Below are positions 4,819 to 57,217 of a DNA stretch of 64,000 bases, piece by piece (position 1 is the first letter of the stretch; the number at the start of each line of letters is the position of its first letter). The DNA lies in NCBI GenBank assembly GCA_009699015.1, contig WLOY01000002.1, positions 334 to 64,333 of the forward strand. Direction: 5' to 3'. The translations under genes were made by a program, and so were the position numbers. The stretch comes from Actinomycetota bacterium (lineage in GTDB: Bacteria > Actinomycetota > Actinomycetes > S36-B12). The notes under the pieces were generated by a model that saw nothing but the letters and a program-made list of their open reading frames with translations, was not told the origin of the DNA and ran no database searches.

Positions 4819-5643
4819 CTAGGTCCCGGCCCCAACTGCACCCAGCGCTGAGCGAAGCTCGACGTCGATGCCGGGAACCGCGGCCACAAACGTGCCCTCG
4901 TAGGGATCCGCTGACCGCAACCCGCCGACCATCGCCCCGGCCTCCAGGGCGATGAGCCCGCCCGCCGCGATGTCCCACCTGTTGAGCCCCCGCTCATAGT
5001 GCCCGTCGATCCGGCCGCAGGCCAGCCAGCACAGGTCGACGACCGCCGCCCCGCCCCGACGGAAATCCCGCACGAGCGGCGCGAGTCCCAGCACCACTGC
5101 AGCCTGTTCCACCCGTCGCTCAGCTGAATACCCGAACCCGGTGGAGACGAGGGCATTCGCCAGGCTCGAGCACTCCCGGACTGCGATCGGCCGCGCACGA
5201 TCACCCTGGATGCTCCATGCACCGCCTCCGCGAATGCCGATGTAGGCCTCGCCAAGCGCTGGCGCCACCACGACACCGATCTCGCTCTCCCCCTCCGCCT
5301 CGGCCGCGACCGACACCGCCCAGGACGGGATCCGATAGAGGTAATTCACTGTTCCGTCCAGCGGATCGACGACCCATCGCACGCCGGAGGTTCCCGGTCG
5401 CTCACCGCCCTCCTCGCCGAGGAGCCCGTCCGCTGGCCGGGCGCCCAGCAGTATCTCGATGAGCCGCGCCTCCGCCCCGCGGTCCATCTCGGTGACCGCA
5501 TCGGTCGGCGATGATTTCGTGTCGACGACGAGGGCATCGGGGCGCTCGTCATGGAGGTACGCCGCTGCTGCGTTTGCCGCCTTCCATGCCAGGTCGAGCA
5601 GGCGATGCCGGGCGAGCAGGTCAGCGAGGGGAACGGGCGTCAT
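4819..5643 (-). CDS. suhB: Inositol monophosphatase family protein (SuhB/ImpA-like)
   Basis: Motifs TEMD, WVVDPLDGT and WDIAAG are present. The internal start MTPVPLADLL (ATG 5643) is chosen because the upstream extension runs through a 23-bp non-coding tandem repeat. Synteny with dut resembles the mycobacterial suhB locus. Confidence 0.85.
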   Translation of the reverse strand: MTPVPLADLLARHRLLDLAWKAANAAAAYLHDERPDALVVDTKSSPTDAVTEMDRGAEARLIEILLGARPADGLLGEEGGERPGTSGVRWVVDPLDGTVNYLYRIPSWAVSVAAEAEGESEIGVVVAPALGEAYIGIRGGGAWSIQGDRARPIAVRECSSLANALVSTGFGYSAERRVEQAAVVLGLAPLVRDFRRGGAAVVDLCWLACGRIDGHYERGLNRWDIAAGGLIALEAGAMVGGLRSADPYEGTFVAAVPGIDVELRSALGAVGAGT

Positions 5644-24200: not shown

Positions 24201-24974
24201 TCACGAGGAGCGCGGCGTCTCCTCCACTTCGATGCCAGCCCGGAGCAAACCCCGCTCGAGGGACTCCACGACCGTCTCGACGACCTTGACTCGGGCATGC
24301 CGCTTGTCGTTCGCCTCGACCACGGTCCAGGGCGCGAACGAAGTATCCGTCCGCTCGAGCATCTCGGTCACCGCCGACTCGTACTCCGAGCGCTTCTCCC
24401 GATTGCGCCAGTCCTCCTCGGTGAGCTTCCATCGCTTCACGGGCTCCTGCTCCCTCGCGGTGAACCGTCGAAGTTGCTCGTCATGCGAGATGTGCATCCA
24501 GAACTTGACGAGGACCATGCCCTCGTCGGTCAGCATGCGCTCGAAGGACTTGATCTCGTCGTATGCGCGACGCCACTGGTCCTCGGTCGCGAAGCCCTCG
24601 ACCCGCTCGACGAGCACCCGTCCGTACCAACTGCGGTCCAGGACGCCCATGCCGCCCCAGCCAGGCAGCTGGGGCCAGAACCGGGTGAGGAAGTGGTGCC
24701 GCTTCTCGTCGTAGGTCGGTGCCGCAATCGACACGACGCGTACATGCCGTGGATCGAGCGGCTCGACGACTCGCTTGATCGCGCCCCCCTTTCCTGACGC
24801 ATCCCACCCTTCGAACACAAGGCACAGCGGCGGACCGAGGACTCCCGAGGCGTCGTAGATGCCACCGGCGAGCAATCGCAGGTACAGCAGGCGATCCTGG
24901 GCCGCGGAGAGCCTTCGCGCCTCCTCATCGCGGGAGAGCTTCTTGGTCAGGTCGAAGGTGTCGAGGAGTCCCAT
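24201..24974 (-). CDS. Polyphosphate kinase 2 family protein (short, single-domain; PAP/PPK2-related subfamily)
   Basis: FEGWDASGKGG Walker A, the DRSWY motif and the lid region KRWKL..EDW are present. Confidence 0.85.
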   Translation of the reverse strand: MGLLDTFDLTKKLSRDEEARRLSAAQDRLLYLRLLAGGIYDASGVLGPPLCLVFEGWDASGKGGAIKRVVEPLDPRHVRVVSIAAPTYDEKRHHFLTRFWPQLPGWGGMGVLDRSWYGRVLVERVEGFATEDQWRRAYDEIKSFERMLTDEGMVLVKFWMHISHDEQLRRFTAREQEPVKRWKLTEEDWRNREKRSEYESAVTEMLERTDTSFAPWTVVEANDKRHARVKVVETVVESLERGLLRAGIEVEETPRSS

Positions 24975-40645: not shown

Positions 40646-42361
40646 ATGATCCGTGACGTGACCGCAAACGCCTCGCTTGTCGACCTGCCCAATCGCCGCG
40701 TCGTTCGGCGGGCACCGAGCACCGTCGGGCTCATCGGCGCCGCCTTCGGCTATGCCGCCGCCCTCACTCCGTCGCTCCTCCCCCACGCCCTCACCTTCCT
40801 CCTCCTTCTCACAGCGCTCGGCACGCTGGCCGGCTACGCAATCGGGGCCACTGCCAGCTGGGCCGCGAACAAGATCCCGTGGGTGCGCCGCCACCATCCG
40901 AGGCGCTGGATCCAGTTCGCGATCGTCGCGGTGACCTGGCTGCCCGCACTCGTCTTCACCCCGGTTTCCGTCGGCTGGCAGGCCGAGCAGCAGAGCGCGC
41001 TGGACATGCCGTCAACCCTGCCCGGCACCGTGACGGTCGTCGCCGTCACCGCCGTGGTCGCGGCGCTGCTCCTCATCGCCGGACGCTCGATCCGACTCGC
41101 GACGAACAAGATCGCTGCCCTCCTCACCCGCCGCGGCCCCTTGCACGGCTGGGTCTCGCGTCGCCAGCCGAGCCATGTCCACCGATCGGTACTCGCCGTC
41201 CGGGTCGCCGTCGCAGGAGTCCTCATCGTCGCCGGGTTCGTCGCGATCCAGGTGGGCCTGGGCCTGCTCATCTCCTCCTATGACGCAGAGAACGCAGGCG
41301 CCTCCGGGCAGTCTCCCGCACGCGTGGGTGCCAACAGCGGCAGTCCCGACAGTCTCGCCCCATGGTCGACGCTGGGGCGGGAGGGCCGGTTCTACGTCTC
41401 CAATGCCATGGCCCCCGCCGCGATCGAGGCAGTGACCGAGGAGCCGGCCGAGGTTCCCGTACGCGTCTATGTCGGCATGCAGCAGGGCCAGACACCCGCC
41501 GAGCGCAGCGACCTCGCGGTCGCGGAACTCGATCGCGTTGGCGCCTGGGACCGCGAGTACCTCGCGATCATGGCCGCCACCGGCACCGGGTGGATCGACC
41601 CCGACGCCATCAACTCCATGGAGATCGTCACCGGGGGCGATGTCACGAGCGTGGCCGTCCAGTACTCGGCCGTTCCGAGCTGGATCGGCTTCGTCGTCGA
41701 TCCCGAGACGACCCAGGTGCAGAACGACAGCACCGTGAACGCGATCCTCGCCGCCTGGCGAGCGAAGCCGGAGGGCGAGCGGCCCACGCTCATCTTGTTC
41801 GGAGAGTCCCTGGGCGCCTTCGGGAGCCAGGCCGCCTGGCCCGAGGGCTCGACCCCGGAGGAGGTCACCGCCGAGATCAAGCACATCGTCTGGATCGGGC
41901 CTCCCTCCCAGTCGCGGCTGTGGAAGCAGTGGCAGGCAGACCGCACGGCGGGCCCGATGTGGCAGCCAGTCATCGGTGACTCAGCCATCGCGCGCACGTA
42001 CATCAGCGATGTCGAACTCGAGCAGGCCATCCCGAGCGAGGGACCCGTCATCACCTTCTCCGCCCACCCGAACGACCCGGTCGTCTACTGGAGCCCCGAC
42101 CTGCTCCTGCAGAAGCCGGACTGGCTCGATCAACCGCTCGGCCCCGGGGTCGATCCGCACATGCGGTGGTTCCCGGTCATCACCTACCTGCAGGTGGGCA
42201 TGGACCTCATCAGCGGCGGCGCGCCGCCGGAGGTCGGTCACAACTACGCTGCGGACGCCGGCCCGGCGATCGCCCTCACGGTCAATCCAGCGGGCTGGAC
42301 GCCGGCCAAGACACAGTCGCTCGTCAAGGCGCTGCCGTCACTTCACTACGAAACGGGGTGA
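40646..42361 (+). CDS. Membrane-anchored alpha/beta-hydrolase family protein (Abhydrolase_9-like)
   Basis: N-terminal multi-TM region plus a C-terminal catalytic domain with [10 protein letters not shown] (G-x-S-x-G). Confidence 0.7.
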
Positions 42362-44687
42362 CCTGCTCCGTCTTGGGGGCGGTACCGATGGACGAGTGAA
42401 AACGTCGAAGCCGCAGGCTGTTCGTGACGACGAACACCGAGCTGAAGGCCATCGCTGCACCGGCGATGAGGGGGTTGAGCAGTCCCGCTGCCGCCAGTGG
42501 GATCGCCGCGACGTTGTAGGCGAAGGCCCAGAACAGGTTGCCCTTGATCACGGCTAGTGTGCGCCGGGAGAGCCTTATGGAGTCGGCCGCTGACCTTAGG
42601 TCACCCCGAACGAGGGTGATGTCGCTCGCCTCGATTGCGACATCGGCCCCCGTTCCCATGGCCATCCCGAGGTCAGCCTGGGCCAGCGCAGCCGCATCAT
42701 TCACGCCGTCGCCGACCATCGCGACGACGCGACCCTGCGCCTGAAGCATGCGCACGACATCGACCTTCGCAGCCGGGAGCACTCCGGCGATGACGTACGC
42801 GCCGTCGATTCCCAGCGCCGACGCGACCGCATGGGCGGTCCGCTCGTTGTCACCGGTGAGGAGGTAGGGCGTGAGCGAGAGCGCGCGCAGGGCATCGACG
42901 CCGGCCCGGCTCTCCGGCTTCAGGTCATCAGCAACGGCCATGACCGCGCGCACCCCGCCGCTCCAGCCGACCATGACCGCCGTCTGCCCGAGTCCCTGGG
43001 CGGAATCCTGCGCCGCCCGCATCGAGGCAGGGATCACGCAGCCATGCTGCTCGACGTAGGAAGCCTGCCCGACGCTCACCCGCAGGCCATCGACCATGCC
43101 GGTCGCTCCGAGCCCTGGCGTGCTCTCGAATCCGGTGACGCCCGGAAGCCCGCCGGCCTCGCTCGCGGCGGCCCCGGCGATCGCCTGGGCGACGGGATGC
43201 TCGGACGCCGCCTCGACACCACCGGCAAAGCGCAGGGCGTCTTCCCTCGCAGCGCCAGCTTCGGTGATGACGTCGATGAGCACCATGCGGCCCATCGTCA
43301 CCGTGCCGGTCTTGTCCATGATGATCGTGTCGACGCGGCGGGTTGACTCCAGAATCTGCGGGCCCTTGATGAGGATGCCGAGTTGCGCGCCCCTCCCGGT
43401 GCCGACGAGGAGGGCGGTCGGGGTCGCGAGGCCAAGGGCGCACGGGCAGGCGATGATGAGGACGGCCACGGCCGCGGTGAACGCTTGGGCCGCGCCGGCA
43501 CCGCTCATGAGCCATCCGGCCAGCGTGGCGAGCGCGAGGACGAGGACGACGGGCACGAATACTGTCGCGATGCGATCGGCGAGCCGCTGGACCGGGGCCT
43601 TGCCCGACTGCGCCGCGGTCACGAGCCGGGCGATCTGCGCGAGTGCGGTATCGGCGCCCACGCGAGTCGCGCGGACCACGAGTCGTCCGCCCGCGTTCAC
43701 GGTGGCGCCGAAGACGTCGTCGCCGGGACCGACCTCGACCGGAACCGACTCGCCGGTGAGGAGCGACGTGTCGACAGCCGAGGCCCCCTCCTCGACAACG
43801 CCATCGGTGGCGACCTTCTCCCCGGGCCGGACGATGAACAGGTCGCCGACGACGAGGTCCCCGATCGGCAGGCGAACCTCGCCTCCGGATCGCAGGACGA
43901 CCACCTCCTTGGCCCCGAGCCTGAGCAGGGCCTCGAGGGCGGCTCCTGACCGCGACTTCGCCCGAGCCTCAAGGTAGCGGCCGAGGAGGATGAGGGTCGT
44001 GACGCCAGCCGCGACCTCGAGGTAGATCATCGGCCCCGAGGTCGCCGATGACGTCCACTCGAAGGGCATGTGCATCCCGGGGACACCCGCTCCCCCGAGG
44101 AAGAGCGCCCACAACGACCAGGCGAATGCCGAGAGGACCCCGATGGAGATGAGCGTGTCCATCGTGACCGCGCCATGGCGGGCATTCATCACGGTGGCCC
44201 GATGGATCGGCCAGGCTCCCCACACGACCACGGGTGCGGCAAGGGTGAGGGACAGCCACTGCCAGAAGTCGAACTGGAGGAACGGCACCATGGCTAGGGC
44301 AACCACCGGCGCAGTGAGGGCAACGCAGATGAGGAGGCGTGACCGCAGTTCGCGCGCCGCTGCGCAGGCGGGTTCGCCCCCCGTGCCGTCCTGGGATTCC
44401 TCGGAGCCCGAGGTCGGCAGTCCGACGTTCTCGCCTTCGGGCGCTGGGAGCCGCGCGGAGTAGCCGGTGGCCTCGACCTGCTCGATGAGTTGGTCAGCGC
44501 TCACGGTGTCGGGCTCGAATTCGACCGTCGCGGTGCCGGTTGCGTAGTTGACCGAGGCGACGACCCCGGGCAGGCGATTCAGCTTGCGCTCGATCCTCAT
44601 CGCGCAGGAGGCGCACGTCATTCCGCCGACGGCGATGTCGAGGTGTCGCATTCGCCCCTCCCCTTCGTGCTCGCGAACCGACGTCAC
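42324..44687 (-). CDS. copA: Copper-translocating P1B-type ATPase
   Basis: N-terminal HMA motif GMTCASC, TM motif CPC ([13 protein letters not shown]), DKTGT and [10 protein letters not shown] are present. The start overlaps the copZ stop. Confidence 0.9.
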
Positions 44688-44890
44688 ACGAGCACGTAGC
44701 CGGCCTCGTCAACCGCGTCTGCCAGGGCCTGCCGAGAAGCATCTCCGGTGACCGTCAGCATCCCTTGCTCCAAGTCGACGATGGCATCGGATATTCCCGG
44801 CACCTTGCGCACCTCGGTCGTCACCGCCGCAACGCAGTGCTCGCAGGTCATTCCCTCGACAGCGTAGGTGCGGGTCGTCATGTCCGTCAT
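44684..44890 (-). CDS. copZ: Copper chaperone CopZ (heavy-metal-associated domain)
   Basis: 68 aa with GMTCEHC, preceded by the RBS GGGAGGAGA. This is the internal part of track ORF 44684..45325. Confidence 0.85.
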
Positions 44891-44936
44891 TCTCCTCCCG
44901 ATCGTTCCCCGGAGGCACCTGCCCGCGTGCGTGCAC

Positions 44937-45680
44937 CTAAGGCACTCGCGTGCCCATGAGCGGCCGCAACCCGAGCGCTGCCCAAGGCGATTCTCCAATG
45001 AGCCCGCCCGCAGGCGTGATCGATGGCAGGCCGAGCATCCCGAGCGCGCTTGCGACCAACACATCGAGCACCGTCTCACGGGTCGACTCCGGCGACCGGT
45101 CGCCGCAGGCCCACCGATAGATGGCGAATTCCCTGCCCTCGACGTCGCCGTGTCCCCCACCCGGGACGAGGACCCCGAACACTCCGTCGCGCCGCGGACG
45201 CAGCCAGTCTGCGAGGCCGCCTTGTCGGTTGCACCGGCTCGGCTCGGCGCAGACATCGAACACCGGCAGATGCGCCACCTGCGACCAGGCTCCCGCAATG
45301 AGGCGGGTCGGGGACTCGACGCCATCCGCGTAGACGAGGCCCCGCATGTCGACGCCGCGGCCGATGAGCTCCGCGGCCATCCAGGTCCCGGCTGCGGCGC
45401 CGGCCGAGTGCCCGATCACGACCCAGCGCAGGGCTGGGTCGAGGCCAATCCCGTGGATCTCGTCGACAATGATCGCGAGGGCACTGGCGCGGCTCATTGC
45501 CGTGCGCGGCGAAAGCGCCCCGAGCCGCGGCCGGATGACCGTGAGCCCCTCATCGGCCAATCGATCGGTGAGCGCCTGCAGCCGTTCCGGGGAGCGGGTG
45601 AATCCGTGCACCAGGAGAACCGCGCCACGAGCAAGGGGCGCGCGGTCGATGACGATCCTCCCGTCAGACGACGTGGACAT
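44937..45680 (-). CDS. Alpha/beta hydrolase
   Basis: Internal start MSTSSDGR. LLVHGF and the nucleophile elbow GHSAG are present. Confidence 0.7.
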   Translation of the reverse strand: MSTSSDGRIVIDRAPLARGAVLLVHGFTRSPERLQALTDRLADEGLTVIRPRLGALSPRTAMSRASALAIIVDEIHGIGLDPALRWVVIGHSAGAAAGTWMAAELIGRGVDMRGLVYADGVESPTRLIAGAWSQVAHLPVFDVCAEPSRCNRQGGLADWLRPRRDGVFGVLVPGGGHGDVEGREFAIYRWACGDRSPESTRETVLDVLVASALGMLGLPSITPAGGLIGESPWAALGLRPLMGTRVP

Positions 45681-45728: not shown

Positions 45729-47318
45729 ATGACCGAGCCGACCTCCGCGCCTCACACGGCCCCGACGACACCCGCGGCGCCCGCAGCCAGCCGCCCCATG
45801 ACCCTGCCGTTGAGCGTACGCACGACCACCGTGGCCCAGCGGGAGGCAGCCGGGCGCGCGGCACGCGACCGCCGTGCGAGGACGAGCATCGGGCAGTTCG
45901 CTCCCAGCCCCGACCGTGCCAATCCCGTCGCGCTCCTCGCCGGGCAGGAGCTCATCCGAGCCCAGCCGCTCCTGCCCTTGCGCCACGCCAGGATGTCGGT
46001 GTCACCGTTCACCTTCTACCGGGGCAGCGCCGGCATCATGACGGCCGACCTCGCATCGATGTCGAGCTCGGGCCTGGTGACCCAGCTCTGCGGCGACGCC
46101 CACCTTTCGAACTTCGGCATGTTCGCAGCCCCCGACCGCAGCCTCATCTTCGACATCAATGACTTCGACGAGACGAATCCCGGGCCTTTCGAGTGGGATG
46201 TCCTGCGGCTCGCAACCTCCTTCGTCCTCGCCGGTCGCGACCTCGATCTCCCGAACGACACGATCGCAGCGGCGGCCGAGGTCGCCGGTTCCGCCTACCG
46301 CACGCAGATGCAGGTCTACGCCGGCATGCCGGACCTCGGCATCTGGTACGACCGGGTGAGCGTCGAAATGCTGTCCGAGTGGGCTTCCGCACAGGGCGAT
46401 TCGCGTACCCAGCGGATCATCACCCGAAGCGTGACGAAGGCCCGGACCCGTGATGCGTGGTCCGCCGTCTCCAAGCTGACGGAGGTCGTCGACGGCAAGC
46501 GTCAGTTCAAGGACCTCCCGCCGCTCCTCATGAGGATTCCCCTCGACGACTCGCTCATCACGCAGATCAACGACCTCTTCGTGCAGTACCGCACGACCCT
46601 GCCCCGCGATCGGCAGTCCTTGCTTCGCCGGTACCAGGTGCGCGACTTCGGACACAAGGTCGTGGGCGTCGGGAGCGTTGGCCTCCTCGCATTCGTCATC
46701 CTCCTCGAAGGCCGTGACGAGAACGACCTGCTCGTCCTGCAGGTGAAGCAGGCAGTGCAAAGCGTCCTCGAGCCTGTCACCGCGCCCTCGGTGTACGCCA
46801 CGGGCGGCGAGCGGGTGGTCGTCGGGCAGCAGCTCATGCAGGCCGCATCAGATTCGTTCCTCGGATGGATCACCGGACCGGGGGGTCGCCAGTACTACGT
46901 ACGCCAGCTACGCGACATGAAGTTCGCCCCGGATCCCTCGCGGTTCACGAGCGAGACCCTCACCTCTTATGCCAGCATCTGCGGACGCACCCTCGCGCGA
47001 GCTCACGCGAGGGCCGGGGATGCGGTGATGATCGGGTCGTACCTCGGCACGAGCACCAAGTTCGACCGAGCAGTCCGGGACTTCTCGCTCGCCTACGCAG
47101 ATCAGGTCGCGGCGGACTACGTCGAGTACCGCGCCGGCATCGACAGCGGGGCCATCTCAGTCGCCGCAGACAGCGACACGTTCGACCACCGATTCGTGAC
47201 GCAGCCGACGGGCGCCCTTGTCATGACCGGGCCCGTCCACGAATCAAGCCAGCCCACAGAACAGGTCGTGGCACCCCCTGTCGACGAGCAGGCACCGCCC
47301 CAGGGGAGCGCTACCTGA
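45729..47318 (+). CDS. DUF2252 domain protein
   Basis: PFTFYRGSA, CGDAHLSNFG and IFDINDFDET motifs are characteristic of DUF2252. Confidence 0.8.
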   Translation: MTEPTSAPHTAPTTPAAPAASRPMTLPLSVRTTTVAQREAAGRAARDRRARTSIGQFAPSPDRANPVALLAGQELIRAQPLLPLRHARMSVSPFTFYRGSAGIMTADLASMSSSGLVTQLCGDAHLSNFGMFAAPDRSLIFDINDFDETNPGPFEWDVLRLATSFVLAGRDLDLPNDTIAAAAEVAGSAYRTQMQVYAGMPDLGIWYDRVSVEMLSEWASAQGDSRTQRIITRSVTKARTRDAWSAVSKLTEVVDGKRQFKDLPPLLMRIPLDDSLITQINDLFVQYRTTLPRDRQSLLRRYQVRDFGHKVVGVGSVGLLAFVILLEGRDENDLLVLQVKQAVQSVLEPVTAPSVYATGGERVVVGQQLMQAASDSFLGWITGPGGRQYYVRQLRDMKFAPDPSRFTSETLTSYASICGRTLARAHARAGDAVMIGSYLGTSTKFDRAVRDFSLAYADQVAADYVEYRAGIDSGAISVAADSDTFDHRFVTQPTGALVMTGPVHESSQPTEQVVAPPVDEQAPPQGSAT

Positions 47319-51519: not shown

Positions 51520-52437
51520 TCAATACCGCTCGGGGATGTGTCGTAGCGGCAGTTCCGGCTCCTGGTAGCCGTCGGGGAGCTGCCTCGCCGGCAGTCCTAC
51601 GTCCCGGTCGGGCAGTGGCTCATATGGCACGCGGCTCAGGAGGTGACTGATGATGTTGAGCCTCGCCCGCTTCTTGTCGTCCGTGTGGGCGATGAACCAG
51701 GGAGCCCATGCATTGTCAGTGGCGGCGAACATCGCATCGCGAGCGCGTGAGTAGTCGAACCAACGGCTGTACGACAGCAGGTCCATGTCCGAGAGCTTCC
51801 AGACCTTGCGCGAATCGTCGATGCGGCTTTCGATCCGACGCATCTGCTCGTCTGGGCTCACCTCCAGCCAGTACTTCAGCAGGATGATCCCTGAGTCGAC
51901 CATCGCCCGCTCCACCCCCGGCGCCATCATCAGGAACCGATCGGCCTGCTCCTCGGTGCAGAATCCCATGACCCGCTCGACCCCTGCCCGGTTGTACCAG
52001 CTGCGATCGAAGATCACCACCTCGCCGGCGGCAGGCAGGTGCGGCACGTACCGCTGCAGGTACATCTGCGATTTCTCCCGCTCGGTTGGGGCCGGCAGCG
52101 CCACGACCCTGAACACTCGTGGACTCACCCGTTCGACGATGCGCTTGATGGTGCCGCCCTTGCCTGCTGTGTCACGGCCCTCGAAGACGATGCAGACCTT
52201 GGCGCCCGCTGACCTGACCCACTCCTGCATCGCCACGAGCTCGGCCTGGAGCGTCGCTAGCTCGCTCTCGTAGGCCCTGCGACTCATCTTCCCGCTGCCT
52301 CCCGGGACCGCTGCGGCTGATGTCGTCCCCCGTTTGGACCCCTTCAGCGTCACCTCCGACCCACTCGGTGCTTCGGCGAGTCCGTGCCGACCCTTCTTCC
52401 GATCCCTCTTGTGCTGCCCCTTCTTGCCCTTTGCCAT
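51520..52437 (-). CDS. Polyphosphate kinase 2 (class-I-like, polyP:NDP phosphotransferase)
   Basis: Internal start MAKGKKGQHKRDRKKG at ATG 52437. FEGRDTAGKGG Walker A, DRSWYNRAGVE and KVWKLS..D are present. It lies 2 nt downstream of the ATPase stop. Confidence 0.88.
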   Translation of the reverse strand: MAKGKKGQHKRDRKKGRHGLAEAPSGSEVTLKGSKRGTTSAAAVPGGSGKMSRRAYESELATLQAELVAMQEWVRSAGAKVCIVFEGRDTAGKGGTIKRIVERVSPRVFRVVALPAPTEREKSQMYLQRYVPHLPAAGEVVIFDRSWYNRAGVERVMGFCTEEQADRFLMMAPGVERAMVDSGIILLKYWLEVSPDEQMRRIESRIDDSRKVWKLSDMDLLSYSRWFDYSRARDAMFAATDNAWAPWFIAHTDDKKRARLNIISHLLSRVPYEPLPDRDVGLPARQLPDGYQEPELPLRHIPERY

Positions 52438-52439
52438 GG

Positions 52440-55196
52440 CTACCGCCTCCGGTCTCGGTTGGAACCCGCTGATGCACGTCGTCGTCGGACCCACTTGGCG
52501 GACTCGATCACGACCGGCAGCAGCATCGCCAGGCCAATGCAGGCCAGCCACTCCGAGCCGCTGAGCGGGACGGTGAGCAGCGCCCGCTGCAACCCCGGCA
52601 GTTCCGTTGCCAGGTAGAGCATGGCCACGGGGACCATCGAGATCGCCAGCGCCTTGAGGACGGGGGCGGTGAGGCCGCTCGTCGGATCGCGGCGGTTCGT
52701 CAGCGCGTTGAGCACGGTGCCCAGGCCCATGACGATGAACGCCATCGTCATCGAGGCGCTTGCCGAGTCAGCGCTCGGCTCGTCGGGCCCGAGCACCAGG
52801 GGGACCATCGCTGCCACGAACAGGACCAGCGCGTAGACGATCCAGAACGTGATGGCGGCTCGATTGGTGATCGGCACCCTCGGATCCCTGGGCGGACGGC
52901 TCATGACGTCGGGGTCGCCGGGATCGACCGCAATGACGACGACGCCGGCCGCCGTCACGAAGAACAGGAGGAAGAGCACCATGGACGGGGTCAGGGCGAC
53001 CCCATCGTTCACATCGAACGCCGTCGCCGCGACGAACAGCATCACGAGGGCGAGCAGCTGTGTCATCTGGAACCGGACGTATGACACGACCTTCGCGTAG
53101 ACCCGGCGACCGAGCTCGACGGCGTGGACAAGCGTGCCGAAATTGTCGTCGGTGAGGATCATGCGGGCAGCCTGCTTCGTGACCTCGCTGCCGCTGCCCA
53201 TCGCGACGCCCATGTCGGCCTGCTTGAGGGCCGCCGCGTCATTCACCGCGTCGCCCGTCATGGCGACCACGAGTCCCTGCTGCTGCATCACCCGGGCCAG
53301 CCGCAACTTGTCCTCCGGCGAGACCCGGCCGAAGACGTGCAACTGGGGCAGCCGCGCAGCAAGCTCCTCATCCGACATGGCGTCGAGCTCAGTGCCGCTG
53401 ATGGCCCCCGGACCCAGCCCGAGGGTCTCTCCGATCGCCCGGGCAGTGACCGCGTAGTCACCGGTGATCATCCGCACATCGATGCCGGCGCGCTGGGCCA
53501 CCGAGACGGCAGACTTCGCCTCAGCGCGCAGCGGATCGATCATTCCGACCATGCCCACGAAGCCCAGGTCGGAAGCCAACGACATCGGGTCTGACGACAG
53601 ACTCGGTTCCTCGTCCTCATCGATGAACCGTGCAGCAAAAGCCAGTACGCGCAAACCTTTCTCGGCCATTCGGGAGTTGGCCTCGGTAATCGCCTGACGC
53701 GCCTTGCCGATCGGCACCTGCAGGTCGCCGTCCGGCCGGCCTGCGTGGCTGCAGCGCGCGAGAACGACATCCGGGCCGCCCTTGACCAGTTCGATGGTTC
53801 GGCTCACCCCGTCGATCTCTACCCGATGGAAGGTCGCCATGAACTTGTACTCGGAATCGAACGGCACTTCAGCGATGCGCGGGTAGGCGCTGCGAGTCTC
53901 GACGGCATCGACGCCAAGCTTGGCAGCGAGCACGACGAGCGCAGCCTCCGTCGGATCGCCGACCACGGCACCGTCGTTCGAAACGGTCGCATCGCTGCAC
54001 AGGCACAGGCCGAGCGCGAGCCTGGTGAAGTCAGGGACGGGCGAGCCTGCCACCGAGCGAATGGTCCCCTGCTTGCGGTACCCCTCTCCATCGACGGTGA
54101 ACCAGGACCCATTGCCGTAGATGTCGGACACCATCATCTCGTTCAGCGTGAGCGTGCCGGTCTTGTCGGTGTTGATGGCGCTGGTCGCACCCAGCGTCTC
54201 GACGTCGGTGAGGTTCTTCACGATCGCCTTGGCCGCAGCGAGCTGCTTGGCTCCGGACGCCAGCATGCCGGAGACGAACGCGGGCAGCCCGGTCGGGATC
54301 GCGGAGATAGCCATCGCCGTTCCGAGCAGGAGAAGCTGGCTCGCGGGCAGGCCACGAACGAGGCCGACCACCACGATGAAGGCCACAGCCGTCCACGCGA
54401 TGATGCCGAGCACACGCGTGAGCCCGTCGAGCTCCTGCTGCAACGGCGACCGAGTTCGCTTGACCGAGGTGAGCATCGACGCGATCTGACCCATCTGGGT
54501 GCCCATGCCCGTCGCGGTGACCGCGATCGATGCGGTGCCTCGCGTCACCGACGTGTTCTGGAAGGCCATGTTCGATCGGTCGCCGATCGGCACATCACGT
54601 TCCGGAATCCGCGCGGGATCCTTTGCGACGGGCGCGCTCTCGCCAGTGAGCGCGGCCTCCTGCACCTCGAGGGTCGCCGAGCGCAGGATGCGCCCGTCCG
54701 CAGGCACGATGTCGCCGGGCTCGAGTTGGACGATGTCGCCGACCACGACATCGACGGACGGCACGAGGCCGAGCACCCCGGACCGAAGCACCTTCGCCTG
54801 CGTCACCTGCAGGGTCGCGAGCGCATCCACGCTGGCGCGCGCCTTCATCTCCTGTCTGGTCGCAAGCGAGATGTTGAACGCGATGAGGACTCCGACGACA
54901 ATCGCCGTCGACCATTGGGCGATAAGCGCACTGACCCCGACAACGGCGATGAGCATGAGGTTCATCGGGTCGCGCAGTTGGCCCAGCGCTACGACGAGGA
55001 TCGACGGTGGTCGCTCGGCGGCAATCCGGTTCGGACCGAGCCGCTCCAGCCGGGACGCCGCCTCCTGCAGGCTCAGCCCGCCGGCCGGATCGCACCCGAG
55101 CTCGTGGCAAACATCGGCCCAATCACGTTCGTACGGCGTCGCGGCCCCGGTCGACCGGCCCCCGCCATGTTCTCCTGATTCGGTTTCCCTGCGCAT
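52440..55196 (-). CDS. Cation-transporting P-type ATPase (P2-type, Ca2+/Mg2+/alkali-cation-like)
   Basis: N-terminal cation-ATPase domain (GLS..EA..RL...GPN), TGES, DKTGTLT, MITGD, GDAVNDAAALK and about 10 TM helices. There is no CPC/HMA motif, so it is not P1B-type. Confidence 0.9.
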   Translation of the reverse strand: MRRETESGEHGGGRSTGAATPYERDWADVCHELGCDPAGGLSLQEAASRLERLGPNRIAAERPPSILVVALGQLRDPMNLMLIAVVGVSALIAQWSTAIVVGVLIAFNISLATRQEMKARASVDALATLQVTQAKVLRSGVLGLVPSVDVVVGDIVQLEPGDIVPADGRILRSATLEVQEAALTGESAPVAKDPARIPERDVPIGDRSNMAFQNTSVTRGTASIAVTATGMGTQMGQIASMLTSVKRTRSPLQQELDGLTRVLGIIAWTAVAFIVVVGLVRGLPASQLLLLGTAMAISAIPTGLPAFVSGMLASGAKQLAAAKAIVKNLTDVETLGATSAINTDKTGTLTLNEMMVSDIYGNGSWFTVDGEGYRKQGTIRSVAGSPVPDFTRLALGLCLCSDATVSNDGAVVGDPTEAALVVLAAKLGVDAVETRSAYPRIAEVPFDSEYKFMATFHRVEIDGVSRTIELVKGGPDVVLARCSHAGRPDGDLQVPIGKARQAITEANSRMAEKGLRVLAFAARFIDEDEEPSLSSDPMSLASDLGFVGMVGMIDPLRAEAKSAVSVAQRAGIDVRMITGDYAVTARAIGETLGLGPGAISGTELDAMSDEELAARLPQLHVFGRVSPEDKLRLARVMQQQGLVVAMTGDAVNDAAALKQADMGVAMGSGSEVTKQAARMILTDDNFGTLVHAVELGRRVYAKVVSYVRFQMTQLLALVMLFVAATAFDVNDGVALTPSMVLFLLFFVTAAGVVVIAVDPGDPDVMSRPPRDPRVPITNRAAITFWIVYALVLFVAAMVPLVLGPDEPSADSASASMTMAFIVMGLGTVLNALTNRRDPTSGLTAPVLKALAISMVPVAMLYLATELPGLQRALLTVPLSGSEWLACIGLAMLLPVVIESAKWVRRRRASAGSNRDRRR

Positions 55197-55291
55197 GGCA
55201 CGCCCCCAGCAGTCGGCACGATGGTTGAGCGACTCAATGACGCTACCCCGGGCCGGCGCGCGATGGCGTGCCAGAAGGACGATTCGGGCGG

Positions 55292-55780
55292 CTACTCCGT
55301 GATGGGCACGGTCGCGAGATCCGCCTCGATGACGCCTCGATCATCATCGTCGAGGTCGATTGCGGCGCCATAGGCGAGATTGCGTTCGGCCCGGGCGGCG
55401 TCCATGTCGCCACGCACGGCGTGGGCCCGTGCCAGTGCCTCATGCGCGGAGGCGGGCACGAATGAGCCGATCTCGTACTCCTCGCAGACCGCTAGGCAGC
55501 GCTGGGCGTGATAGAGCGACTGATCCCCGCGACCGAGGACGGCATAGACCCTGCTGCAGAGCCAGTCGCCGATCGCCCATTGCTCGGCCCCGCCGACCTT
55601 GCCCCAGTGCCAGCGACTGGCATGGGCGGCGTGGATCATCGAGTCGTCCTGCGCCGGGGTGCGCGACTGCATCGCGAGGTAGTCCCACGTGATGTTGAAC
55701 AGCTCACCGGCCAGCTTGCGCTCCCCCAGCAGTTCGAGCATTCCATTGTCGTCGGCTGCCGGTGGCGCATCACTGAACAT
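55292..55780 (-). CDS. Conserved hypothetical protein (helical, TPR-like by composition)
   Basis: 162 aa with MIHAAHASRWHWGKVG...W...WLCSRVYAVLGR, a pattern I recall from uncharacterised actinobacterial proteins. It overlaps the LysE stop by 11 nt, and the alternative start is 55741. Confidence 0.55.
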   Translation of the reverse strand: MFSDAPPAADDNGMLELLGERKLAGELFNITWDYLAMQSRTPAQDDSMIHAAHASRWHWGKVGGAEQWAIGDWLCSRVYAVLGRGDQSLYHAQRCLAVCEEYEIGSFVPASAHEALARAHAVRGDMDAARAERNLAYGAAIDLDDDDRGVIEADLATVPITE

Positions 55781-56414
55781 GGCTGGAATATACGGCGGCC
55801 CCGGTCACGAGTGCGAATACGCCGAAGGCGGCAAGCACTCCGCCGGAGATTCGGTTCACGATGACCATCGCCCGGTCGCTGACGGCATGCCGCACGGCCC
55901 ACACGCCCGTAGAGAGCGCCAGCCACCACGCCAGGGAGCCGCAGGCAACACCGGCCGTGACGACGACGGCGCCACCCGGCCCCGGCTGGGCGGCGAGTCC
56001 GGCGCCGGCGAAGATCGCGGCGAACGCCATGATCGTCATCGGATTGGTGAGGGTCAGGCCCACCGCGCTGGCAAACAGCGTGGTCAGTCGGGTCGAGTCT
56101 TGCGCCTTGGCTGCGGCGAGGGCCGGCGGGGTCCTCATGGCCCGCCAGCCGAGCCACATCAGCGCGAGACCGCCGATGATCCGAAACTGCGCCTGGTAGT
56201 CGATCATCGCCTGGGCCACGGCCGACAGCCCGAACGCCGCCAGTGCGGCGAACAGGGCGTCAGCGAATGCGATGCCGGTGCCGGTTGCGAGCCCTGCCCG
56301 CCATCCGTGCGCCAGAACCCTCTGGATGCAGAGGATGCCCATGGCACCCACCGGTGCGGCTACGACGACCCCGATGATGAAGGTCCGGGCGAAGAGGCCT
56401 GCGCTCGCACCCAT
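55770..56414 (-). CDS. LysE-family amino-acid/metabolite exporter
   Basis: 214 aa with six hydrophobic segments. The N-terminal motif APVGAMGILCIQR is typical of one LysE/RhtB subgroup. The start lies 2 nt after the ABC permease stop. Confidence 0.65.
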   Translation of the reverse strand: MGASAGLFARTFIIGVVVAAPVGAMGILCIQRVLAHGWRAGLATGTGIAFADALFAALAAFGLSAVAQAMIDYQAQFRIIGGLALMWLGWRAMRTPPALAAAKAQDSTRLTTLFASAVGLTLTNPMTIMAFAAIFAGAGLAAQPGPGGAVVVTAGVACGSLAWWLALSTGVWAVRHAVSDRAMVIVNRISGGVLAAFGVFALVTGAAVYSSHVQ

Positions 56415-56416
56415 GA

Positions 56417-57217
56417 TCAGGAGGAACCCCGGGGGGTCCATCGGAATACGAGCATGGCGAGGATGAATCCGCCGATCGTCCACCCAATGAGGACCAGTGC
56501 GCACAGCCCGAGCTGCCACGACCCGGAAACCTCGATCGCGGAGGCTCCGTCCGGCAGGAAGACGTAGCGCATCGCCTGGGTGAGCCACTTGAGCGGGAAG
56601 ATGGATGCGAAGTTCTGCATCCACGACGGGAGCTGATTGAAGACGAAGAAGACACCGGACGTGAACTGGAGCACGAGAACGATCGGCGCAACGATCGCCG
56701 AGGCTCCTCGGCCATGCTTGGGAACAACCGAGAATGCCAAGCCCAGCAGCGTGCACGAGAGCAGGCCGAGGACGCTCACCCAGGCGAATGTCATCCACTT
56801 TCCGGCACTGGACGGCAGGTCGATCCCGTAGAACAGGACTCCGACGGTCAGGAGCACGGTGACCTGCGCGATGTAGGCGACGAACACCAGCCCGACCTTG
56901 CCCAGGAAATAGGAGGCCTTCGGCATCGGCAGGCCCTGCAGGCGCTTGAGCGTGCCGTCCTCCCGCTCCATTGGAATGGCAATCGCGAGATTCTGGAAGG
57001 AGGTGTAGAGCACCCCGGAAGCGATCATCCCTGCGAGGAAGTACTGCGAGAACGTCACGTCCCCGAAGCCCACGCTCTGCTCAGCGAACACCGAGCCGAA
57101 GATCACGAGCAGGATCATCGGCAGGGCGAAGTTGAAGATGGCGGACTCCCGGTCTCGGAAGAACTGCCGCAGTTCGATCCCGACACGCTTTCGACCGAGG
57201 TACAGGGTGCGGTTCAT
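56417..57217 (-). CDS. ABC-2 type transporter permease
   Basis: 266 aa with 6 TM helices. It has a 4-nt overlap with the upstream ABC ATPase gene. Confidence 0.8.
   Translation of the reverse strand: MNRTLYLGRKRVGIELRQFFRDRESAIFNFALPMILLVIFGSVFAEQSVGFGDVTFSQYFLAGMIASGVLYTSFQNLAIAIPMEREDGTLKRLQGLPMPKASYFLGKVGLVFVAYIAQVTVLLTVGVLFYGIDLPSSAGKWMTFAWVSVLGLLSCTLLGLAFSVVPKHGRGASAIVAPIVLVLQFTSGVFFVFNQLPSWMQNFASIFPLKWLTQAMRYVFLPDGASAIEVSGSWQLGLCALVLIGWTIGGFILAMLVFRWTPRGSS

What the first reader, a model, noticed from the sequence alone, without database searches (positions are those of the whole stretch)
51520..55196. P2-type cation ATPase abutted (2-nt gap) to a class-I-like polyphosphate kinase 2
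The ATPase stop TAG (52442-52440, minus strand) and the PPK2 ATG (52437) are separated by only 2 nt, which implies co-transcription and probably translational coupling. The PPK2 has an unusually basic N-terminal tail (MAKGKKGQHKRDRKKGRHG). Polyphosphate is a major chelator of divalent cations. A hard-wired gene pair linking a cation pump to a polyP-driven nucleotide kinase is not a pairing I know to be described. It could represent polyP-coupled cation homeostasis or local NTP regeneration for the pump.
Basis: partly seen in the sequence, partly recalled or inferred. Interest (0 to 1): 0.55.

Follow-up and report, generated by a model that had tools for sequence, protein, structure and literature searches.

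The report
Polyphosphate kinase paired with atypical ion pump
A polyphosphate-using kinase sits 2 bases behind a membrane pump that has lost all its usual ion-binding acidic residues, and this pairing recurs across many actinobacteria, which suggests an undescribed link between the cell's polyphosphate store and a pump whose cargo is unknown.

Summary
The ATPase ORF (52440-55196, minus strand) ends in TAG. Two bases later the PPK2 ORF (51520-52437) starts at ATG, with a GGAGG 8 nt upstream.

The pairing is not a lineage accident. In 80 species-level genomes carrying a close PPK2 relative, 45 have a P-type ATPase within 6 kb. In 33 of them it is directly adjacent on the same strand, in either gene order, across Actinomycetes, Acidimicrobiia, Thermoleophilia and Chloroflexia. 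Among ATPase orthologues with enough flanking sequence, 18 of 62 are followed by a class I PPK2 and 5 by an unrelated class III PPK2. A SulP anion transporter is a frequent third partner. A second PPK2 paralogue in the same window showed no ATPase in 6 contexts.

The new point concerns the pump. It resembles P2A calcium pumps and keeps DKTGT and TGES. However, every canonical ion-site residue is replaced (Glu to Thr in TM4, Asp to Thr in TM6, and others). All 118 ATPases recovered in these loci lack the TM6 Asp. "Cation pump" is therefore unproven.

The best reading is a co-expressed polyphosphate-mobilisation module, in which PPK2 regenerates ATP for an atypical pump. I found no published description. 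The function is inferred, not shown.

The parts
52440..55196 (-). P2A-like P-type ATPase gene of 918 aa with about 10 hydrophobic segments. Catalytic motifs are intact but the ion site is non-canonical.
   Evidence: Pfam E1-E2_ATPase 7.8e-47, Cation_ATPase_N, Cation_ATPase_C and Cation_ATPase. Best solved relative is the Listeria Ca-ATPase LMCA1 6ZHF at 4e-133. Below the NCBIfam Ca-ATPase equivalog cut-offs: 508 vs 798.3 and 438 vs 703.4. Hydropathy profile.
51520..52437 (-). Class I polyphosphate kinase 2 gene of 305 aa.
   Evidence: PF03976 1.9e-92. TIGR03707 scores 349 bits, above the 301.8 cut-off. PDB 5LL0 1.8e-79 and 3CZQ 4e-70.
52435..52450 (-). Gene junction: GGAGG (52450-52446), ATPase stop TAG (52442-52440), CC spacer, PPK2 ATG (52437-52435).
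   Evidence: Direct reading, verified by script.
52381..52437 (-). Lys/Arg/His-rich N-terminal tail of PPK2, MAKGKKGQHKRDRKKGRHG (residues 1-19).
   Evidence: Translation. Homologues start MGKGKKK or MAKKxKK, and some are His-rich, e.g. VAKHHGKHHGKHHEKEH.
52288..52380 (-). Poorly conserved low-complexity linker (residues 20-50) between the tail and the PPK2 domain.
   Evidence: The Pfam domain starts at residue 51. Length is roughly conserved but sequence is not. In-frame GC3 is 0.76.
52153..52179 (-). PPK2 Walker A / P-loop, GRDTAGKGG (residues 87-95).
   Evidence: Aligned with the Francisella PPK2 P-loop.
54153..54167 (-). ATPase phosphorylation motif DKTGT (Asp344).
   Evidence: Invariant in all 118 related ATPases.
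54636..54647 (-). ATPase actuator-domain motif TGES (residues 184-187).
54282..54302 (-). TM4 motif AIPTGLP. Thr302 replaces the Glu of the canonical PEGL motif.
   Evidence: Alignment to LMCA1. Clade alignments.
53046..53081 (-). TM5 segment YVRFQMTQLLAL. Leu714 and Leu717 sit at the positions of SERCA Asn768 and Glu771.
   Evidence: SERCA numbering is from my own knowledge of the SERCA1a sequence.
52944..52979 (-). TM6 segment VLFLLFFVTAAG. Leu744, Val747 and Thr748 replace Asn796, Thr799 and Asp800.
   Evidence: Most of the 150 nearest cluster representatives keep N..TD here.
52701..52751 (-). TM8 segment MTMAFIVMGLGTVLNAL. Thr827 sits at the position of SERCA Glu908.
55197..55291 (-). 95-nt intergenic region upstream of the ATPase, the likely promoter region of the two-gene operon.
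   Evidence: ORF map. No sigma-70 consensus and no Rfam match. Partly similar to the upstream region of the closest metagenomic relative, L081.

Best explanation
The two genes form a co-transcribed module that recurs widely in Actinomycetota and some Chloroflexota. It joins a polyphosphate-dependent nucleotide kinase to a divergent P2A-like P-type ATPase.

Proposed mechanism:
1. PPK2 (class I) transfers phosphate from polyphosphate to ADP. It regenerates ATP and removes the ADP that the pump produces.
2. The pump can therefore run on the polyphosphate reserve when respiration-derived ATP is scarce, for example in starvation, hypoxia or dormancy.
3. The pump moves an ion whose identity is unknown. 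Its site is lined only by uncharged polar residues (Thr, Gln, Asn), which fits a monovalent ion better than Ca2+ or Mg2+.
4. In many genomes a SulP-type anion transporter is a third member. It may handle the anion, possibly phosphate, released in the net reaction polyP(n) -> polyP(n-1) + Pi.
5. The Lys/His-rich N-terminal tail of the PPK2 probably tethers the enzyme to polyphosphate or to the acidic membrane surface.

Shown: the gene architecture, the family assignments, the conservation and flexibility of the linkage, the class III substitution, and the loss of canonical ion ligands.

Inferred: co-transcription, the direction of the PPK2 reaction in vivo, energy coupling, the transported species, and the role of the tail.
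For: - The junction has a 2-nt gap and an internal SD. No terminator or promoter consensus was found.
- PPK2-centred sample of 80 genomes: ATPase present in 45, directly adjacent on the same strand in 33 (19 ATPase-first, 14 PPK2-first). It spans four classes and cultured genera: Arthrobacter, Planobispora, Geodermatophilus, Actinoplanes, Couchioplanes and Nakamurella.
- The ATPase was the most frequent neighbour family.
- ATPase-centred sample: 18 of 62 loci have a class I PPK2 immediately downstream. Another 5 have a class III PPK2 (TIGR03709 363 bits; PDB 6AN9 1.8e-88) followed by SulP. Two PPK2 classes that share only polyP-dependent nucleotide phosphorylation occupy the same slot.
- Specificity control: the window's second PPK2 paralogue lies in a different conserved synteny, with 0 of 6 contexts showing an ATPase.
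- All 45 PPK2-linked ATPases, and all 118 in the combined set, lack the TM6 Asp. Canonical E-N-E-N-T-D pumps dominate the 150 nearest 50%-identity clusters. The link is therefore specific to atypical pumps.
- The site residues are conserved within the window clade: RFQMTQLL, the invariant TM6 Thr, and GTV(F/L)NALTNR. This indicates a functional site under selection.
- SulP is tightly packed with either partner, with gaps from -8 to 25 nt.
Against: - There are no expression, biochemical or genetic data.
- The linkage is facultative. 39 of 62 ATPase orthologues and 35 of 80 PPK2 relatives have no partner within the sequence held, and adjacency is patchy on the PPK2 tree.
- Energy supply alone does not explain why only this pump group is linked.
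- In at least one actinobacterium (Corynebacterium glutamicum PPK2B, from my own knowledge) a class I PPK2 works mainly as a polyphosphate synthase in vivo. The reaction direction is therefore uncertain.
- Many loci sit among other recurrent membrane or stress genes: MFS, DAGK-like, LuxR-type, DUF1269, SHOCT, DUF7144 and Abhydrolase_9. Island co-residence could explain part of the signal.
- Samples are the best 80 hits of capped scans, are dominated by MAGs, and were analysed with a home-made gene caller.
Confidence: 0.45

Rival explanations
1. The coupling is through substrate, not energy. The pump imports or exports the counter-ions (K+, Mg2+, Ca2+, Mn2+) that are bound when polyphosphate is made and freed when it is consumed. 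PPK2 may run in either direction. The two genes are co-expressed so that ion balance tracks polyphosphate turnover.
For: Polyphosphate granules carry K+, Mg2+ and Ca2+, and polyP breakdown in phosphate-accumulating bacteria is accompanied by K+ and Mg2+ release (established knowledge). The conserved linkage and the SulP anion transporter as third partner fit an ion-balance module. This rival is compatible with the class III substitution.
Against: The pump has none of the carboxylates that coordinate divalent cations in every characterised P2/P3 pump. Site residues differ strongly between linked clades: Thr, Leu, Glu, Asp or Cys in TM4, and Leu, Lys, His or Asn in TM6. That is odd for a single shared cation.
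Confidence: 0.25
2. There is no direct functional coupling. Both genes belong to a mobile, co-regulated stress or membrane-homeostasis gene neighbourhood, and they end up adjacent by frequent local rearrangement.
For: Recurrent co-neighbours are unrelated to polyphosphate: MFS, DAGK-like kinase, LuxR-LAL regulator, DUF7144, DUF1269, SHOCT/PLDc_N, PAP2, Abhydrolase_9 and DUF2252. The window itself has Abhydrolase_9 and DUF2252 within 10 kb. Adjacency is patchy and often absent.
Against: The ATPase is by far the most common neighbour of this PPK2 (45 of 80 loci, against 17 for SulP, the only other neighbour counted over the same 80 loci). The genes are usually directly abutting on the same strand, with gaps from -4 to about 100 nt, in both orders. 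A non-homologous PPK2 class fills the same slot. Only Asp-less pumps are ever linked.
Confidence: 0.2
3. The pump is not a metal-cation pump at all. Having lost all acidic ligands, it transports an anion or another non-metal substrate (phosphate, short polyphosphate, or a lipid or polyamine-like molecule), or it acts as a polyphosphate-fuelled electrogenic pump. PPK2 and SulP are its metabolic partners.
For: The site contains only Thr, Gln, Asn or hydrophobic residues in the window clade. Sister clades have Lys or His at the TM6 Asn796 position. There is no charged residue in the cores of TM4, 5, 6 or 8. It is associated with an anion transporter and a phosphate-polymer enzyme. P4 and P5 pumps show that P-type ATPases without the classical carboxylates carry non-metal cargo (established knowledge; review PMC10654040).
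Against: Overall sequence is closest to bacterial Ca2+ pumps. No anion-pumping P-type ATPase is known. Neutral oxygen ligands can also bind Na+ or K+. The inference rests on alignment, not on structure or assay.
Confidence: 0.1

Closest known systems
Prokaryotic P2A Ca2+-ATPases (Listeria LMCA1, PDB 6ZHF; also SPCA1 and SERCA)
   Same: Full-length homology at 4e-133 to LMCA1. Same domain set and about 10 TM segments. DKTGT, TGES and the TGD / GD(A)VND motifs are intact.
   Different: All ion-site residues are replaced: Glu309 to Thr, Asn768 to Leu, Glu771 to Leu, Asn796 to Leu, Thr799 to Val, Asp800 to Thr and Glu908 to Thr. It scores below both Ca-ATPase equivalog cut-offs. It is linked to PPK2, which was not seen for canonical pumps in this sample.
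Class I PPK2 (Francisella FtPPK2 5LL0/4YEG; Sinorhizobium SMc02148 3CZQ; the Pseudomonas PA0141 type, TIGR03707)
   Same: Single PPK2 domain, P-loop GRDTAGKGG, and a score above the equivalog cut-off. About 50-55% identity over the domain to FtPPK2 (my estimate from the alignment).
   Different: It carries a 50-residue N-terminal extension with a Lys/His-rich tip, shared by its actinobacterial clade. It is genomically linked to a P-type ATPase and often to SulP.
TCDB functionally uncharacterised P-type ATPase family 23 (FUPA23, TC 3.A.3.23)
   Same: Described as type-2, 10-TMS actinobacterial pumps of unknown function. Streptomyces coelicolor has two (PMC3924187).
   Different: Membership could not be tested. 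I know of no PPK2 link reported for that family.
Polyphosphate-based metal tolerance model (polyP hydrolysis plus metal-phosphate efflux, alongside copper P1B ATPases in acidophiles)
   Same: It links polyphosphate turnover to ion export and mentions P-type ATPases and PPK2 in the same physiology (PMC5328820).
   Different: That model uses PPX and Pit and unlinked P1B copper pumps. It involves no operon, no PPK2-pump pair and no atypical P2-like pump.
M. tuberculosis P2-like pumps CtpE (proposed P6), CtpF, CtpH and CtpI
   Same: Actinobacterial type-II P-type ATPases, partly of unclear specificity (PMC3573892, PMC10654040).
   Different: All four keep a PEGL or PEGM motif in TM4. None is reported next to ppk2. 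The window pump has PTGL and no TM6 Asp.

Membership tests
PPK2 class I (TIGR03707 equivalog) | Single PPK2 domain of about 230 aa that scores above the curated equivalog cut-off | tested here: met
   349 bits against a cut-off of 301.8. The class II and III models are below their cut-offs. PF03976 covers residues 51-273.
PPK2 class I (TIGR03707 equivalog) | P-loop (Walker A) and the downstream DRS/WYNR motif aligned with solved class I enzymes | tested here: met
   GRDTAGKGG (residues 87-95) and FDRSWYNRAGVERVMGF align without gaps to Francisella PPK2 5LL0.
PPK2 class I (TIGR03707 equivalog) | PolyP-dependent phosphorylation of NDP to NTP | not testable with these tools
   Needs an enzyme assay.
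P-type ATPase superfamily | DKTGT phosphorylation motif, TGES actuator motif and an HAD-type P domain | tested here: met
   DKTGT at residues 344-348 and TGES at 184-187. TIGR01494 scores 236 bits against a cut-off of 62.3.
P2A Ca2+-ATPase (SERCA / PMR1 / LMCA1 type) | Score above the curated equivalog cut-offs (TIGR01116, TIGR01522) | tested here: not met
   438 against 703.4, and 508 against 798.3.
P2A Ca2+-ATPase (SERCA / PMR1 / LMCA1 type) | Glu in the TM4 PEGL/PEAL motif (SERCA Glu309) | tested here: not met
   AIPTGLP, with Thr302.
P2A Ca2+-ATPase (SERCA / PMR1 / LMCA1 type) | TM6 Asn and Asp (SERCA Asn796 and Asp800) | tested here: not met
   Leu744 and Thr748. No Asp in any of 118 related pumps, whereas most of the 150 nearest cluster representatives have N..(T)D.
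P2A Ca2+-ATPase (SERCA / PMR1 / LMCA1 type) | Type II topology with Cation_ATPase_N and Cation_ATPase_C domains and 10 TM segments | tested here: met
   Pfam domains. Hydropathy peaks are consistent with 10 TM segments.
TCDB FUPA23 (3.A.3.23) | Sequence membership in the TCDB family | not tested
   No TCDB sequences are available in the tools. Only a description of the family was found.
Conserved operon / functional gene pair | Same-strand adjacency retained across distant taxa, above chance | tested here: met
   33 of 80 loci directly adjacent across four classes, in both orders. The paralogue control gave 0 of 6.
Conserved operon / functional gene pair | Co-transcription on one mRNA | not testable with these tools
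   Only architecture is available: a 2-nt gap and no terminator.

The most novel reading that the evidence does not exclude
The PPK2-linked pumps form a previously unrecognised functional class of P-type ATPase. They have abandoned carboxylate-based metal binding and are dedicated to polyphosphate physiology. Either they are pumps energised directly from the polyphosphate store through a partner PPK2, keeping ion gradients or membrane potential alive in non-respiring cells. Or they are the first P-type ATPases to move an anion such as phosphate, working with the SulP partner.
Probability: 0.12. Interest if true: 0.85.

Novelty: new variant of a known kind. Interest (0 to 1): 0.6.

Why it matters
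Polyphosphate has long been described as an energy and cation reserve, but few specific cellular processes have been shown to draw on it directly. A conserved gene module that ties a polyP:ADP phosphotransferase to one particular group of membrane pumps gives a concrete, testable case. Cultured carriers are available: Couchioplanes, Actinoplanes, Arthrobacter, Planobispora and Geodermatophilus.

The analysis also flags several clades of P2A-like ATPases that databases label "Ca2+-transporting" although they lack every Ca2+ ligand. Their substrate is open. Determining it would extend the known chemistry of P-type pumps and correct a widespread annotation.

Tried and rejected
1. Alternative PPK2 starts. 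GTG 52551 (from the mechanical ORF list) would overlap the ATPase by 112 nt, and Met51 would leave a 152-nt gap. Both were rejected because homologues conserve the Lys-rich N-terminus and GC3 supports coding.
2. The tail as a signature of the pairing. Rejected: Lys/His-rich tails are about as frequent in PPK2s with no ATPase nearby (54%) as in linked ones (61-86%).
3. Regulatory RNA or classical promoter or terminator around the operon. None was found. I read the upstream sequence and compared upstream regions of 35 loci by eye. I saw no DosR-like or PHO-box-like motif and no motif shared across clades, only within-genus conservation. This was not a rigorous motif search.
4. A third gene in the window's own operon. 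The upstream 162-aa ORF (55292-55780) has no Pfam or NCBIfam match and is not conserved in related loci. No SulP gene is present in the window.
5. Literature. Six full-text searches found no description of a PPK2-P-type ATPase or PPK2-SulP module. The SulP search was polluted by "sulphate". The key TCDB paper (Chan et al. 2010) is not held.
6. My first gene caller mis-called an antisense ORF in place of PPK2. It was replaced. It is still imperfect, so the counts reported come from tblastn coordinates.
7. Structure prediction was not run. The tool returns no coordinates, so it could not test the ion-site inference.

Full report
**Observation**

On the minus strand the 918-aa ATPase ORF (52440-55196) ends with TAG at 52442-52440. 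Two bases (CC) follow. The 305-aa PPK2 ORF then starts at ATG 52437 and ends at TGA 51522-51520. A GGAGG lies at 52450-52446, 8 nt before the ATG and inside the last codons of the ATPase.

A convergent GFO/IDH/MocA oxidoreductase gene ends 47 nt downstream of PPK2. A 95-nt intergenic region precedes the ATPase. The unit therefore looks like a two-gene operon. No sigma-70-type promoter, intrinsic terminator or Rfam element was detected around it. These scans say little for a high-GC actinobacterium.

**Identity of the two proteins**

The PPK2 matches PF03976 (1.9e-92). It passes the NCBIfam class I equivalog TIGR03707 (349 bits, cut-off 301.8), while the class II and III models stay below their cut-offs. 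Its closest solved relatives are the class I enzymes of Francisella (5LL0, 1.8e-79) and Sinorhizobium (3CZQ). The P-loop GRDTAGKGG and the DRSWYNRAG motif are aligned.

The ATPase has the full P2-type domain set. It is most similar to the Listeria Ca2+ pump LMCA1 (6ZHF, 4e-133) and to SPCA1. It falls well below the curated cut-offs for PMR1-type and SERCA-type Ca2+-ATPases (508 vs 798; 438 vs 703). Public sources label its close homologues "Ca2+-transporting ATPase" or, generically, "cation-translocating P-type ATPase".

**Start codon and basic tail**

The mechanical ORF extends to a GTG at 52551, and the Pfam domain begins at Met51. The ATG at 52437 is nevertheless the best start, for three reasons:
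- The nearest homologues, called independently, begin MAKGKKG or MGKGKKK.
- GC3 is highest in this frame over the first 50 codons (0.76).
- Related loci show the same layout of a Lys-rich tip, a variable linker of 20-35 residues, then the conserved "..KM(K/S)RK.YE" domain start.

In some orthologues the tip is His-rich (VAKHHGKHHGKHHEKEH in L146; VAKHHGNHHEKGH in L089). The tail is a property of the clade, not of the pairing. At least 5 Lys/His in a 15-residue window occur in 54% of PPK2s with no ATPase nearby, against 61-86% of linked ones.

**Conservation of the pairing**

A scan of one genome per species for relatives of the PPK2 returned 80 loci at 65-80% identity.
- A P-type ATPase lies within 6 kb in 45 of them.
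- It is directly adjacent on the same strand in 33: 19 ATPase-first and 14 PPK2-first.
- The hosts are Actinomycetes, Acidimicrobiia, Thermoleophilia and Chloroflexia.
- Cultured carriers include Arthrobacter humicola and three other Arthrobacter species, Planobispora takensis, Geodermatophilus sp., Actinoplanes sp., Couchioplanes caeruleus and a Nakamurella genome.
- The few proteobacterial loci in the sample lack the ATPase.
- Gaps between the two genes range from a 4-nt overlap to about 110 nt.
- The ATPase was the most frequent neighbour family.

A reciprocal scan of metagenome contigs with the ATPase gave 80 orthologous loci at 60-85% identity. Of the 62 with at least 900 nt downstream, 18 have a class I PPK2 immediately downstream, 5 have a class III PPK2, and 39 have none.

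On a neighbour-joining tree of the 80 PPK2s the linkage state is patchy with some phylogenetic signal. Nearest neighbours share the state in 40 of 80 cases, against 23.5 +/- 4.7 after shuffling. The linkage is therefore inherited locally but repeatedly rearranged, lost or gained.

As a specificity control I used the window's second PPK2 paralogue (24201-24974, 42% identical). Its homologues sit in a different conserved synteny (DUF4192 - PPK2 - PKD - principal sigma factor - a GyrB-type topoisomerase subunit). No P-type ATPase was found within 5 kb in 6 contexts.

**Two findings that sharpen the picture**

First, in five loci (L106, L115, L117, L122, L124) the same ATPase clade (70-72% identity) is followed by a class III PPK2 instead of a class I enzyme. 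That protein scores 363 bits against TIGR03709 (cut-off 247) and matches the Cytophaga class III structure 6AN9 at 1.8e-88. It is only 32-34% identical to the window PPK2. Two PPK2 classes that share little beyond polyP-dependent nucleotide phosphorylation occupy the same slot. This argues that the activity itself is what is selected next to the pump.

Second, a SulP/STAS anion transporter (TIGR00815, 413 bits) is a recurrent third member. It is tightly packed with either partner in several orders, for example PPK2-ATPase-SulP in L007 and L024 with gaps of 20 and -8 nt, and ATPase-PPK2(III)-SulP in L122 with gaps of 15 and 19 nt. The window itself has no SulP gene.

Other recurrent neighbours are an MFS transporter, a DAGK-like kinase, a LuxR-type regulator, DUF7144, DUF1269, SHOCT/PLDc_N, PAP2, Abhydrolase_9 and DUF2252.

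**The pump is atypical**

Alignment to LMCA1 and multiple alignments place the following window residues at the canonical ion-site positions. SERCA1a numbering is from my own knowledge of that sequence.

| SERCA1a position | Helix | Window residue |
|---|---|---|
| Glu309 (PEGL motif; here AIPTGLP) | TM4 | Thr302 |
| Asn768 | TM5 | Leu714 |
| Glu771 | TM5 | Leu717 |
| Asn796 | TM6 | Leu744 |
| Thr799 | TM6 | Val747 |
| Asp800 | TM6 | Thr748 |
| Glu908 | TM8 | Thr827 |

No charged residue lies in the hydrophobic cores of TM4, TM5, TM6 or TM8. DKTGT and TGES are intact.

Within the window clade the polar residues are strongly conserved: RFQMTQLL, the invariant TM6 Thr, and GTV(F/L)NALTNR. The site is therefore under selection rather than decaying.

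All 118 ATPases of the combined loci have the catalytic Asp, and none has Asp at the TM6 position. The linked pumps fall into several clades at 37-76% identity with different signatures:

| TM4 motif | Distinctive TM5/TM6 residues | Note |
|---|---|---|
| PTGLP | Leu..Thr in TM6 | Window clade |
| PTGLP | Lys in TM6 | |
| PDALP | His in TM6 | Arthrobacter |
| PEALP | His..Asn in TM6 | |
| PLALP | Glu in TM5, Asn..Asn in TM6 | |

An exhaustive HMMER search of 1.84 billion cluster representatives found 84,770 relatives. Among the 150 best, the canonical signature E-N-E-N-T-D dominates from about 545 bits downward. The closest representatives are non-canonical. The window pump thus belongs to a divergent branch next to ordinary bacterial Ca2+ pumps. 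In my sample only such divergent pumps are ever PPK2-linked.

**Mechanism**

Shown: the architecture, the family assignments, conservation in both orders, the class III substitution, the SulP partner and the loss of canonical ligands.

Inferred: the genes are co-transcribed, and PPK2 uses polyphosphate to rephosphorylate the ADP produced by the pump. P-type ATPases are reversed by ADP at the E1P step (established knowledge), so ADP removal would also push the cycle forward. The pump can then run on the polyphosphate store when ATP is scarce.

The net reaction releases phosphate, which a SulP partner might export. The uncharged Thr/Gln/Asn site fits a monovalent ion better than Ca2+ or Mg2+. 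The cargo is unknown. The Lys/His-rich tail plausibly binds polyphosphate or acidic lipids.

I put 0.45 on this energy-coupled module, 0.25 on coupling through polyphosphate counter-ions, 0.2 on mere co-residence in a stress-gene neighbourhood, and 0.1 on a non-cation substrate.

The main uncertainties are the reaction direction in vivo and the facultative nature of the linkage. On direction, Corynebacterium PPK2B, a class I enzyme, is mainly a polyP synthase (my own knowledge).

**Comparison with what is known**

Six full-text searches found no description of a PPK2-P-type ATPase or PPK2-SulP module. The known polyphosphate-metal tolerance model involves PPX, Pit and unlinked copper pumps (PMC5328820).

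The M. tuberculosis P2-like pumps all keep PEGL or PEGM (PMC3573892). A recent review states that prokaryotic P-type diversity is still undescribed and proposes CtpE as a new family, P6 (PMC10654040).

TCDB's functionally uncharacterised family 23 (type-2, 10 TMS, present in Streptomyces; PMC3924187) may include this pump. I could not test that.

**Verdict**

The finding is a new variant of known kinds. It is an undescribed, widely recurring gene module built from a class I (or III) PPK2 and an atypical P2A-like pump of unknown substrate.

**Caveats**
- The samples are the best 80 hits of capped scans and are rich in MAGs, some with probable long-read frameshifts.
- Gene calls are heuristic.
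- The ion-site inference rests on alignments.
- The literature search covers open-access text only.
- The source is a freshwater actinobacterial MAG related to "Candidatus Nanopelagicales" entries.

Noticed in passing
window 24201-24974 (-): A second PPK2 paralogue of 257 aa, 42% identical to the ATPase-linked one. It most resembles the C-terminal half of class II polyP:AMP phosphotransferases (TIGR03708, 346 bits, below cut-off). It sits in a conserved DUF4192 - PPK2 - PKD-domain - principal sigma factor synteny seen in several freshwater actinobacterial contigs. Some public records mislabel it 'UDP-galactose-lipid carrier transferase'.
   Followed up: yes
L122 4367-5296 and 5316-7088; also L106, L115, L117, L124: Orthologues of the window ATPase are followed by a class III PPK2 and then a SulP transporter. 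This looks like non-orthologous replacement of the class I PPK2.
   Followed up: yes
L007, L024, L005, L031, L013, L114, L147, L107, L070, L015 (loci): A SulP/STAS anion transporter of about 570-620 aa is packed against the ATPase or the PPK2 with gaps of -8 to 25 nt. In a few loci (L070, L015) it sits next to PPK2 with no ATPase. It is absent from the window.
   Followed up: partly
L146 about 2310-2380; L089 about 5065-5110: In these orthologues the N-terminal tail of PPK2 is histidine-rich (VAKHHGKHHGKHHEKEH; VAKHHGNHHEKGH) instead of lysine-rich. Both kinds of tract are known polyphosphate-interacting sequences (my own knowledge).
   Followed up: no
L011, L012, L015, L020, L022, L023, L042, L084: about 25 nt upstream of the PPK2 start: The leader directly upstream of the PPK2 start translates to a conserved '..(H/N)P(S/L)EVSDM', which implies a conserved SD-plus-spacer DNA stretch across distant loci. 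It is not present in the window and is unexplained.
   Followed up: no
window 42324-44687 (-) and 44684-45325 (-): A second P-type ATPase of the heavy-metal P1B type (HMA domain) sits with an upstream HMA-domain gene whose stop overlaps its start by 4 nt. This is an ordinary copper or metal efflux pair, unrelated to PPK2.
   Followed up: partly
window 40646-42361 (+) and 45729-47318 (+): Abhydrolase_9 and DUF2252 genes lie within about 10 kb of the operon. They belong to families that recur near PPK2 or the ATPase in other loci (clusters c8 and c12). This hints at a looser shared neighbourhood.
   Followed up: partly
L008, L010, L046, L054, L055, L072: The ATPase next to PPK2 is split into two or more frames or pieces. 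These are either pseudogenes or frameshift errors of long-read MAG assemblies. In L046 and L054 a small SHOCT/PLDc_N gene sits between the ATPase and PPK2.
   Followed up: no
window 55770-56798 (-) vs 56417-57217 (-): The LysE-type ORF overlaps the ABC-2 permease ORF by about 380 nt as listed. The LysE Pfam domain begins at residue 145, so the real start is probably much further downstream.
   Followed up: no
window 55292-55780 (-): A 162-aa ORF directly upstream of the ATPase has coding-like GC3 (0.83) but no Pfam or NCBIfam match. It is not conserved upstream of the pair in related loci.
   Followed up: partly
P0275, P0284, P0289, P0290, P0292, P0296, P0305, P0323, P0335, P0381: Among the nearest cluster representatives are proteins of 1400-1700 aa in which a canonical P2A pump forms the C-terminal half. 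This is reminiscent of the double-length CtpH/CtpI (FUPA24) architecture.
   Followed up: no
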